Assembly (NCBI RefSeq): GCF_009914755.1
Contig: NC_060927.1
DNA: 64,000 nt
Source of the DNA: the human T2T-CHM13v2.0 reference genome, Homo sapiens
Strand: one strand, 5' to 3'
Below the pieces are notes generated by a model. It saw only the letters and a program-made list of their open reading frames with translations, did not search any database and was not told the origin of the DNA. The position numbers and the translations under genes are program-made. Shown one piece after another: positions 5,452 through 62,849 of this stretch. How positions within the stretch are numbered: the first letter of the stretch is position 1; each line of letters starts with the position of its first letter.

Positions 5452-5673
5452 TGAGCTGAAGCAGAAGCTGGATGAGGAAGGCAGCAAGTGCAGCATCCTC
5501 TCGAAGCACCAGCAGTTTGTGGAGCACTGCTGCATGCGCTGCTGCTCGCCCTTCACCTTCCTCGTCAACACCAAGCGCCAGTGTGGAGATTGCAAATTCA
5601 ATGTCTGCAAGAGCTGCTGCTCCTACCAGAAGCACGAAAAGGCCTGGGTCTGCTGCGTCTGCCAGCAAGCGAG
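5452..5673 (+). CDS. MYRIP: MYRIP internal coding exon (second coding exon), zinc-finger part of the Rab27-binding/Slp-homology domain
   Basis: A polypyrimidine tract and CCCAG acceptor end at 5451; the donor is GAG|GTGAGT at 5674. After 1 nt the frame reads ELKQKLDEEGSKCSILSKHQQFVEHCCMRCCSPFTFLVNTKRQCGDCKFNVCKSCCSYQKHEKAWVCCVCQQA(R), which I recognise as the human MYRIP N-terminus. Length 222 nt, phase 2 at both ends. Confidence 0.97.
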
Positions 5674-60729: not shown

Positions 60730-62076
60730 TTCTTACAGATCAGAGATAAAATGACCTAAAGAAATATCTGGGATTATTATTGACATTTTACAGTCATTTC
60801 CAAAAATGCAAAACAAACAGCTATCTCCAGGCATATATTAAGAGGGTGTGTGGGTGTGCATGTGTGTGCGTGTGTGTGTGTGTGTGTGTACATTTGATTA
60901 GGAATTTCAAGTCAAGATCTCTTGTTTGTTTCATTCAGCACCAGAATGTAATTTTATCTGAAAAGTATCTGGTTTTGGATAGAAAACAGGTTGGCCCAGC
61001 TGAGAACTGGCATTTGGAAGTGCACTGGACAATTAACCAGCTTTTCCTGTAGAACTTTCTGGTGACCACCCGATTTTGCCCTGCCTATGTAGAAGGGAGG
61101 GGGACCCACATCAGAAGAGGATGGGTGTTGCAGGAGGCACATTTCAAGAAAGTGTCTGGATTTACAAAAAAATGTGTTTCTTCTTAGTCTAAGATAGTTT
61201 CTTCATAATTTATGTGGTCTGAGAAAAATGCTATGCTTATTAATAATAGTACTTTGCAGATGAGAGGGCACTAATATTTGAGCACTATAATATGCAAAGC
61301 ATTGTAATTTGGTGGAGTATGAGCATGATGTCTTTAGGTCCTTTCCACAAATTTATGAAACCAGGGTGAAGGTGAGGATGATAGCCATTTGTACAAATAA
61401 AGATACTGAGGTTCATAGAAGCAAAATAATTTGCCTGTGGCCACAGGGCTAGGGAGTGGTCACATACTCTCCATCACAGTATATGTTTACACATGCACTG
61501 GAGTCAACATGAATGGGGCCAAACATATATATACACACACTCTCGTGCTTTTCTTATACCACAGGGAGTGTACTGATTTGCCCTGCCCAAAAAAGATCCC
61601 CTGAGATTTCTCTTCCAATTATTCCCTTCCCTCTGTACAGTCTCTTGCTGCTATTTGAAGCATGTTTGTATTAAGAACATTTAGCTAAAGCAAACCTCAT
61701 AGTCTGTGACTGACAAGAAAGCACATGATAAAACCATGTCTTTGGCTCTTCCATATCTTGAATTTACAAACCAAGAAAGTGGGAAAAAAAAGTAAAAATT
61801 CATGTAACATTTCCCCTACAAAGTTGTATTAAACCGGGCAGCTTTAAATGAGCTTTGGTGCCTCTCTCTCCCTGTTGCACATGTGTTGATGGATTTTTCT
61901 CGGCATTGGTTGTCTGAGATTTCACAGCTCTCCGTCACCTCCCTTCTGAAACTGGTAATAGCAACGAGCAGTAGCACTGTGCTGTTCCTTCACTCTGGTA
62001 TTGCTCTCTACCCAGAGCCCTGTGTCTTTTCTTAAGAAGACTACCTGGCTTATCCTCTGTCTGGGCTTTTCTGGCC

Positions 62077-62147
62077 ATGAGGACATGGAGTGAAGATTTT
62101 GGAGCTCTGTGCCCTGTGTCCTGGCGTTTAATTATTTCTCAAGACAC
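62077..62147 (+). CDS. MYRIP: Candidate alternative first coding exon of MYRIP (MRTWSEDFGALCPVSWRLIISQD+AC)
   Basis: GCCATG at 62077 in non-repeat sequence, 23 open codons plus 2 nt, then donor CAC|GTGAGC at 62148. Phase 2 matches the end of the 5452-5673 exon. The transcription start cannot be determined from sequence. Confidence 0.6.
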
Positions 62148-62849
62148 GTGAGCTAAATTTGAGTAGAAGAGCTTGGCAGAAAGAAAACCACCAGTTACGG
62201 TAATTTTAATAATTAAGCAACATTGACTTGTCCTTTATTTCACAATTTGCTATTATTGATTATGTACTATAATCCTTTATTATACATTGCCTGATTGTTT
62301 TCATTGATGTTTTGGAACAGAACTATGTCAATTTTGTCCTATTTTGTACATTTTTTAGCATTTTGCATATGCATATCTGTGCAAACATTAAGAAATAAAT
62401 CATAAAGGAAGAGCATTTTAAACCATTGGCTCTATTTCAACAATATGGGTGGAAAAAGTATTTCTCCTCTCCTTATTGACTGCTTTACAAAAACAGGTAG
62501 AATTTTATTCTTTTATTGATAAAACAGAAACCTGATGTGGTGAGGGTTGTAGCTGTGGCTGCCTTTGCTGCAGATGTGCTATCTCTGAGGCTGGGACTAA
62601 ACTTCTTAGTTTATTCCAGCAGGGAGTGGGAAAGTCACATGTGAGTTTAAGAACATTGACTTACTCTGGGCTAACCCAACATACATGTTTTTTGAGCAGC
62701 AACTGATGAGACCTGAATGTTCTAGGAAATTTCATTGTGTAAGCATGGATTTGACAAAGATGACACAGCATGATACTATATCCATCACCCAGGAGGGACA
62801 TTAAGAGATTTCTTAGGGTCCTGAAGCTAAAAACGAAGTCCTTGGATCT

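What the first reader, a model, noticed from the sequence alone, without database searches (positions are those of the whole stretch)
61800..62153. Hidden in-frame alternative first exon predicting a MYRIP isoform without most of the Rab27-binding domain
Seen: in repeat-poor DNA, GGCCATGA at 62077 opens MRTWSEDFGALCPVSWRLIISQD+AC and ends at CAC|GTGAGC. This is the same phase (2) as the donor of the zinc-finger exon, so it could splice in frame to the next exon. It is too short for the ORF track. Upstream are TTTAAA (about 61844), an E-box palindrome CACATGTG (about 61878) and ATTGG (about 61905). Established: MYRIP binds Rab27A through its N-terminal domain and myosin Va/VIIa and actin through more C-terminal regions. 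Inference: an internal promoter could yield a Rab27-uncoupled linker. I recall that an internal-start MYRIP transcript may already be annotated, but cannot verify it.
Basis: partly seen in the sequence, partly recalled or inferred. Interest (0 to 1): 0.7.

Follow-up and report, generated by a model that had tools for sequence, protein, structure and literature searches.

The report
Annotated MYRIP alternative first exon with upstream ORF
The small reading frame sits inside an already annotated internal first exon of the human MYRIP gene, where it most likely acts as a short upstream reading frame ahead of a known brain isoform that starts at methionine 188 and lacks the Rab27-binding domain.

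Summary
The sequence facts are correct. ATG 62077 opens MRTWSEDFGALCPVSWRLIISQD, a GT follows at 62148 (CAC|GTGAGC), and the phase matches the zinc-finger exon donor.

The exon is not hidden. The hub's RefSeq table lists an exon 61992-62199 of other MYRIP transcripts. Its 5' end has no AG before it and matches an initiator motif, so it is a first exon. Its 3' end uses a different donor, ACG|GTAATT at 62199. With that donor the frame stops at TGA 62149-62151, giving a 24-codon upstream ORF. The MYRIP frame then holds no AUG before Met188.

A capped brain cDNA in print (AK294714, PMC2780955) is a brain-specific first-exon variant of MYRIP. Its ORF is 672 aa, which equals Met188 to residue 859.

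So the idea of an internal-promoter isoform without the Rab27-binding domain is supported and already known. The predicted N-terminus is not supported. None of 256 fetched MYRIP proteins carries it, although clustering could hide a human record.

The two donors score about equally and both are weak, so minor use of 62147, giving a 772-aa protein, remains possible at about 0.25. I could not check RNA-seq, CAGE or mammalian alignments.

The parts
61992..62199 (+). Alternative first exon of MYRIP (208 nt), lying in the intron after the zinc-finger exon
   Evidence: The hub RefSeq table lists 'exons of other transcripts 61992-62199'. The bases before 61992 are TTC, with no AG acceptor, and TTCACT matches the initiator consensus BBCABW (consensus recalled; sequence). 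GC rises to 0.46-0.485 here against 0.26-0.38 in the flanks. CpG observed/expected is 0.29, so this is not a CpG island.
62077..62151 (+). First AUG of the exon and its 24-codon ORF (MRTWSEDFGALCPVSWRLIISQDT, stop TGA). It is an upstream ORF if the annotated donor is used.
   Evidence: It is the first of 2 ATGs in the exon. The context GCCATGA has a purine at -3 but no G at +4. No Pfam family matches.
62085..62093 (+). Second AUG of the exon, a minimal ORF ATG GAG TGA in another frame
   Evidence: The context GACATGG has G at -3 and G at +4.
62145..62153 (+). It is not the annotated exon end.
   Evidence: The score under a recalled position matrix is 2.64 bits, against 7.5 for the zinc-finger exon donor. 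The U1 duplex energy is -4.7 kcal/mol, against -11.9.
62197..62205 (+). Annotated donor ACG|GTAATT (exon ends at 62199)
   Evidence: The hub table gives the exon end. The matrix score is 2.22 bits and the U1 duplex energy is -5.3 kcal/mol. In the MYRIP frame the last 22 codons before it (LFLKTRELNLSRRAWQKENHQL) are open but hold no AUG.
62160..62186 (+). Purine-rich stretch between the two donors (GAAGAG, AGAAAGAAA), possibly an exonic splicing enhancer that favours the 62199 donor
   Evidence: It is 78% purine, in the top 2.6% of 27-nt windows in this window. The enhancer role is an inference.
61843..61909 (+).
   Evidence: Relative to 61992 they lie at about -149, -114 and -87. Only the CCAAT position fits a usual promoter layout, and none exceeds chance on its own.
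5452..5673 (+). Zinc-finger exon of the Rab27-binding domain, bypassed by transcripts that start at 61992
   Evidence: Its translation matches Pfam FYVE_2 positions 31-103 of 118 with E 1.7e-23. The donor is GAG|GTGAGT.

Best explanation
Window 61992-62199 is an already annotated, CpG-poor internal promoter and alternative first exon of human MYRIP. Transcripts that start here skip all exons of the Rab27-binding domain. They splice from the annotated donor at 62199 to the exon that begins with the last base of codon 111.

It is therefore a 24-codon upstream ORF, followed by a 2-codon one at 62085. The MYRIP frame has no AUG until Met188.

The product is a 672-aa protein (Met188 to residue 859). 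It lacks the whole FYVE_2 Rab-binding domain and keeps most of the MyRIP/melanophilin C-terminal region. The upstream ORFs probably reduce translation of this isoform.

Shown here: the sequence features, the exon in the annotation, a brain cDNA in print with a 672-aa ORF, and Met188 as the first Met. Inferred: that the cDNA uses this particular exon, that the short ORF is translated, and that the isoform fails to bind Rab27.
For: - The hub RefSeq table lists exon 61992-62199 in other MYRIP transcripts.
- No AG precedes 61992, and TTC|ACT matches an initiator motif.
- With the 62199 donor the ORF from 62077 reads ...SQDT*. The MYRIP frame ahead of 62199 is open for 22 codons without an AUG.
- The first Met after residue 111 in human MYRIP (P0011) is Met188, and 859-187 = 672.
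- PMC2780955 (passages and supplementary table 3 seen): AK294714/FLJ56979 is an oligo-capped whole-brain cDNA of 'Type A1', a first-exon variant from a TSS in an intron or upstream. It is listed as brain-specific, with length 2517 and ORF 460-2478 = 672 aa.
- Those cDNA numbers require 230 nt ahead of the exon after the zinc-finger exon. The annotated exon is 208 nt, so the start would lie about 22 nt further upstream. No ATG lies in 61970-61991.
- Gene models that start at the Met188 position exist in 4 other mammals among the fetched proteins: P0175, P0176, P0180 and P0229. P0175 matches only Rab_eff_C in Pfam.
- A purine-rich stretch sits just upstream of the 62199 donor.
Against: - I could not read AK294714 or any RefSeq transcript, so the link between that cDNA and this exon rests on arithmetic that is 22 nt off (230 against 208 nt).
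It is also nearer the cap, so it could compete.
- The hub table might merge overlapping exon forms into one span.
- No ribosome-profiling ORF for MYRIP appears in the supplements of PMC10032668 (0 hits for MYRIP), so translation of the upstream ORF is not shown.
- I have an unverified memory of a human RefSeq MYRIP isoform of about 772 aa.
Confidence: 0.65

Rival explanations
1. Some or most transcripts from this first exon use the upstream donor at 62147, so that ATG 62077 is in frame with the next exon. The product is a 772-aa MYRIP (23 new residues, then Thr in place of Arg111, then residues 112-859). It keeps only the last 14 positions of the Rab-binding domain. Donor choice would then switch the same AUG between starting an upstream ORF and starting the main coding sequence.
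For: - The phase is correct: 71 nt is 23 codons + 2, as for the zinc-finger exon donor.
- CAC|GTGAGC and the annotated donor are the only 2 of 17 GT sites in 61992-62320 with a positive matrix score, and 62147 scores slightly higher (2.64 against 2.22).
- The AUG is the first in the exon and has a purine at -3.
- Models with other short new N-termini joined to the same downstream exon exist in horse (P0169, P0170), Arvicanthis (P0172) and Tupaia (P0122).
- My unverified memory of a ~772-aa RefSeq isoform would fit.
Against: - The hub table gives the exon end as 62199 only.
- The cDNA in print has a 672-aa ORF, not 772 aa. An in-frame upstream AUG would have given the longer ORF.
- None of the 256 fetched proteins has any 4-residue word of the peptide in its first 150 residues. 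This is weak evidence, because the human 672-aa product is also missing as its own row, so clustering at 90% hides such forms. Also only the best 120 rows of each of 3 searches were returned.
- The horse, Arvicanthis and Tupaia N-termini are unrelated to MRTWSEDF.
- The -1 position of the donor is C, which is rare at human donors (recalled frequencies).
- The sequence pattern occurs 16 times on the + strand and 12 times on the - strand of this window by chance.
Confidence: 0.25
2. The exon reflects rare or spurious intronic transcription that was captured once as a cDNA and carried into annotation. Neither the 672-aa nor the 772-aa product would be made in meaningful amounts.
For: - Both donors are weak: -4.7 and -5.3 kcal/mol against -11.9 for the constitutive exon, and 13% of all GT sites in the window reach -5.0.
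- There is no CpG island and no TATA box at -30.
- Two upstream AUGs precede the main start.
- My searches found no paper that studies such an isoform.
Against: - PMC2780955 lists the first-exon variant as brain-specific on the basis of 5'-EST counts, not a single clone.
- Met188-start models in 4 other mammals suggest recurrent internal starts.
- The annotated 5' end falls exactly on an initiator-like motif.
Confidence: 0.1

Closest known systems
Human MYRIP internal-start transcript: cDNA AK294714/FLJ56979 in PMC2780955, and the RefSeq 'other transcripts' exon 61992-62199
   Same: An intronic transcription start downstream of the zinc-finger exon, brain-specific, giving a protein without the Rab27-binding domain (672 aa, Met188-859).
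   Different: I could not read the cDNA. Its 5' part is 230 nt by arithmetic, against 208 nt for the annotated exon.
Upstream ORFs in 5' leaders of alternative-promoter transcripts (general class)
   Same: The first AUG has a purine at -3, the ORF is short (24 codons) and ends inside the first exon about 310 nt upstream of the main start codon, and a second minimal ORF follows.
   Different: Translation of this ORF is not shown. MYRIP has no entry in the sORF catalogue supplements of PMC10032668.
Predicted MYRIP isoforms with short new N-termini in other mammals (horse P0169/P0170, Arvicanthis P0172, Tupaia P0122)
   Same: A short alternative coding first exon of 6-9 residues is joined to the exon that begins at Arg111, so the zinc-finger part is bypassed. 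P0169 matches only Rab_eff_C in Pfam.
   Different: Their peptides are unrelated to the human 23-residue peptide, and no matching site is found in this window. These are gene predictions, not tested proteins.

Membership tests
Alternative first exon (internal promoter) of MYRIP | The 5' end is a transcription start, not a splice acceptor | tested here: met
   TC, not AG, precedes 61992. The nearest AG, at 61970-61971, follows a purine-rich stretch without a pyrimidine tract. TTCACT matches the initiator consensus BBCABW, which is recalled.
Alternative first exon (internal promoter) of MYRIP | Cap-selected cDNA, CAGE or chromatin evidence for a start at this place | tested here: inconclusive
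   PMC2780955 reports an oligo-capped, brain-specific first-exon variant of MYRIP. No coordinates or sequence were available to tie it to 61992.
Alternative first exon (internal promoter) of MYRIP | Present in a curated annotation | tested here: met
   The hub table (RefSeq RS_2025_08 on T2T-CHM13v2.0) lists exon 61992-62199 of other MYRIP transcripts. I did not see the transcript records themselves.
Coding first exon giving the N-terminus MRTWSEDF...
   The annotated exon ends at 62199. With that end the frame stops at 62149-62151. Use of 62147 in unannotated transcripts could not be tested.
Coding first exon giving the N-terminus MRTWSEDF...
   0 of 256 fetched proteins has a 4-residue word of the peptide in its first 150 residues. 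Paper searches for the peptide and for accessions gave 0 papers.
Coding first exon giving the N-terminus MRTWSEDF...
   No mammalian genome sequence could be fetched. As an indirect check, models in other mammals carry unrelated N-termini.
Upstream ORF | An AUG upstream of the main start with an in-frame stop before it, on the mature transcript | tested here: met
   ATG 62077 to TGA 62151 lies wholly inside exon 61992-62199. The main start at Met188 lies in a downstream exon.
Upstream ORF | Ribosome occupancy or an effect on translation | tested here: inconclusive
   There are 0 occurrences of MYRIP in the 6 supplementary files of PMC10032668.

The most novel reading that the evidence does not exclude
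Two weak, nearly equal donors 52 nt apart (62147 and 62199) in this brain-specific first exon decide the role of one AUG. With 62199 it starts a 24-codon upstream ORF that dampens a 672-aa isoform lacking the Rab-binding domain. With 62147 it starts a 772-aa isoform carrying a possibly primate-specific 23-residue N-terminus and the last helix of the Rab-binding domain. Donor choice would then set both the amount and the kind of Rab27-uncoupled MYRIP.
Probability: 0.2. Interest if true: 0.35.

Novelty: already known. Interest (0 to 1): 0.12.

Why it matters
MYRIP links Rab27-bearing secretory granules and melanosomes to myosin Va/VIIa and actin. An isoform without the Rab-binding domain could compete for the motors and for protein kinase A without being attached to granules.

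That isoform, from an internal brain-specific start, is already in the annotation and in a 2009 cDNA paper, so this finding adds no new gene product. What remains open is modest. One question is whether the first AUG of that exon only forms an upstream ORF. The other is whether use of the second donor sometimes makes it the start of a longer isoform.

Tried and rejected
- **Peptide as a query.** I did not change the code or the sequence.
- **Indirect protein searches.** I searched with the zinc-finger exon, with residues 112-330 of human MYRIP, and with a 446-residue part chosen so that only proteins of 245-781 aa were candidates. The best 120 rows of each were returned, from 291, 738 and 173 hits, giving 256 proteins in all. 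None shows the peptide. The known human 672-aa product is not a separate row either, so this absence says little about human records.
- **Other species' N-termini.** I looked in the window for counterparts of the horse, Arvicanthis and Tupaia N-termini. There were no convincing matches: the best had 2 mismatches and no donor.
- **TATA box.** TTTAAA as a TATA box is rejected, because it lies 144-149 bp upstream of 61992 and there are 62 copies in the window.
- **E-box.** The E-box palindrome occurs 3 times against 1.1 expected, which is not significant.
- **Interspersed repeat.** There is no second copy of 61700-62400 in the window. No repeat library was available.
- **Internal cassette exon.** Rejected for lack of an acceptor.
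- **Paper searches.**
  - MYRIP + 'alternative promoter': 2 papers.
  - MYRIP + isoform + Rab27 + alternative: 79 papers, seen as a listing only.
  - A five-term search gave a listing only.
  - Accessions and the peptide: 0 papers.
  - MYRIP + 'alternative first exon': 0 papers.
  - MYRIP + uORF: 0 papers.

Full report
**1. The observation**

The window reads GGCCATGA with the ATG at 62077-62079. The frame runs MRTWSEDFGALCPVSWRLIISQD and then AC up to 62147. GT follows at 62148-62149 in CAC|GTGAGC. If unspliced, the frame ends as ACG TGA at 62149-62151, a 24-residue ORF.

The zinc-finger exon 5452-5673 is 222 nt. It is read as 1 base + 73 codons + 2 bases (ELKQKLDEEG...CVCQQA), so 2 bases precede its donor. 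ATG 62077 to 62147 is 71 nt, or 23 codons + 2.

**2. Is it more than chance?**

Not by sequence alone. An ATG followed by at least 20 open codons and a phase-2 GT scoring at least 2.6 on a simple donor matrix occurs 16 times on the + strand and 12 times on the - strand of this window. With a purine at -3 the counts are 8 and 6. The matrix frequencies are recalled, not taken from a tool.

TTTAAA occurs 62 times in the window. CACATGTG occurs 3 times against 1.1 expected, and 9 of 100 shuffles reach 3. What singles this place out is the annotation, not the pattern.

**3. What is there**

The hub's RefSeq table lists an exon of other MYRIP transcripts at 61992-62199, so the exon is not hidden.

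- **5' end.** It follows TC, not AG, and TTC|ACT fits the initiator consensus BBCABW (recalled). The nearest upstream AG, at 61970-61971, follows purine-rich sequence without a pyrimidine tract.
- **Promoter type.** The region is CpG-poor (observed/expected 0.29), with a local GC rise to 0.46-0.485. No TATA box lies at -30. TTTAAA lies at about -149, the E-box at about -114, and the inverted CCAAT at about -87. Only the CCAAT is in a usual position.
- **Repeats.** There is no second copy of 61700-62400 in the window.

**4. The donor**

ATG 62077 is the first of two ATGs in the exon. The second, at 62085, reads ATG GAG TGA. In the MYRIP frame the last 22 codons before 62199 are open but contain no AUG.

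Human MYRIP (P0011, named by its sources as human isoform 2, 794 aa) has its first Met after residue 111 at position 188. The annotated transcript therefore carries a 24-codon upstream ORF, and its protein should start at Met188.

**5. Support from print**

Of PMC2780955 (Wakamatsu et al. 2009) I saw passages of the text and rows of supplementary table 3. [quoted passage not shown]

- The cDNA is 2517 nt long with ORF 460-2478, which is 672 aa.
- Its variation type is A1. The paper defines A1 as a first-exon variant from a transcription start in an intron or upstream.
- Table 3 of the paper lists its first exon as brain-specific.

The arithmetic 859 - 187 = 672 gives exactly Met188 to the end. 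These numbers require 230 nt ahead of the exon that begins at codon 111, whereas the annotated exon is 208 nt. With the 62199 donor the cDNA would start near 61970, and no ATG lies between 61970 and 61991.

If that cDNA had used 62147, ATG 62077 would be in frame and the ORF would be 772 aa, not 672. I could not read the cDNA itself, so assigning it to this exon is an inference.

**6. Domains**

The zinc-finger exon matches Pfam FYVE_2 positions 31-103 of 118 (E 1.7e-23). In P0011, FYVE_2 covers residues 8-125 and Rab_eff_C starts at residue 152.

The Met188 product lacks the whole Rab-binding domain. That such proteins fail to bind Rab27 follows from what is known of this domain family (recalled) and was not tested here.

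**7. Relatives**

Three searches of the protein collection returned the best 120 rows each, from 291, 738 and 173 hits. Together with my own translation they gave 256 proteins.

None has a 4-residue word of the peptide in its first 150 residues. One chance word lies elsewhere in P0080.
- **Met188-type starts.** These occur in models from Propithecus (P0175, 671 aa), Carlito (P0176), Tamandua (P0180) and Trichosurus (P0229).
- **Other short new N-termini.** Peptides joined to the same downstream exon occur in horse (P0169, P0170), Arvicanthis (P0172) and Tupaia (P0122). They are unrelated to the human peptide and have no counterpart in the window.

One caveat applies. The collection is clustered at 90% identity, and the human 672-aa product, which exists in print, does not appear as its own row. 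A human 772-aa record could be hidden in the same way.

**8.

No. Of the 17 GT sites between 61992 and 62320, only 62147 and 62199 have positive matrix scores, 2.64 and 2.22. The zinc-finger exon donor scores 7.5.

Predicted pairing with the U1 5' end gives -4.7 and -5.3 kcal/mol, against -11.9 for the zinc-finger exon donor. In the window, 13% of all GT sites reach -5.0. Both donors are weak and about equal.

A purine-rich stretch at 62160-62186 (78% purine, top 2.6% of 27-nt windows) lies just upstream of the annotated donor. It could act as an exonic enhancer for that donor, which is an inference.

I also have an unverified memory of a human RefSeq isoform of about 772 aa. I could not test it, and it may equally be a faulty recollection of the roughly 770-aa exon-skipping form noted in section 10.

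**9. Verdict**

| Reading | Confidence |
|---|---|
| Annotated internal first exon whose first AUG heads an upstream ORF; protein starts at Met188 | 0.65 |
| The exon is low-level transcription of no consequence | 0.10 |

The core biological idea, a MYRIP uncoupled from Rab27 and made from an internal promoter, is already known. Paper searches found no study of its function. Of the 79 papers I saw only the listing.

**10. In passing**

The second frame of the zinc-finger exon is open from ATG 5472 to the exon end, 67 codons. Ten fetched models from primates, pig, sperm whale, squirrel, bat, hare and mole-rat start with that peptide. They rejoin the normal frame at residue 157/158, which means they skip the 137-nt exon after the zinc-finger exon.

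Noticed in passing
window 5472-5672 (+): The second reading frame of the MYRIP zinc-finger exon is open from ATG 5472 to the exon end (67 codons, Ala/Ser-rich). Ten fetched gene models start with this peptide: P0158 gorilla, P0159 chimpanzee, P0160 Mandrillus (770 aa, 30 members), P0163, P0166, P0168, P0173, P0174, P0177 and P0178. They rejoin the normal frame at residue 157/158, so they skip the 137-nt exon after the zinc-finger exon.
   Followed up: partly
window 62160-62186 (+): A purine-rich stretch (78% purine, top 2.6% of 27-nt windows; GAAGAG, AGAAAGAAA) lies between the two candidate donors. It may be an exonic splicing enhancer.
   Followed up: partly
window 62085-62093 (+): A minimal ORF, ATG GAG TGA, has G at -3 and G at +4. 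It lies 8 nt after the first AUG of the exon and in another frame.
   Followed up: no
proteins P0033, P0034, P0035 (Old World monkeys, 871 aa): Models carry a different alternative N-terminus (MGNLDRQ...) joined to the start of the zinc-finger exon. This suggests a further upstream alternative first exon outside this finding.
   Followed up: no
window 62636-62643 (+): A second copy of the palindrome CACATGTG lies about 750 bp downstream of the first. There are 3 in the window against 1.1 expected.
   Followed up: no
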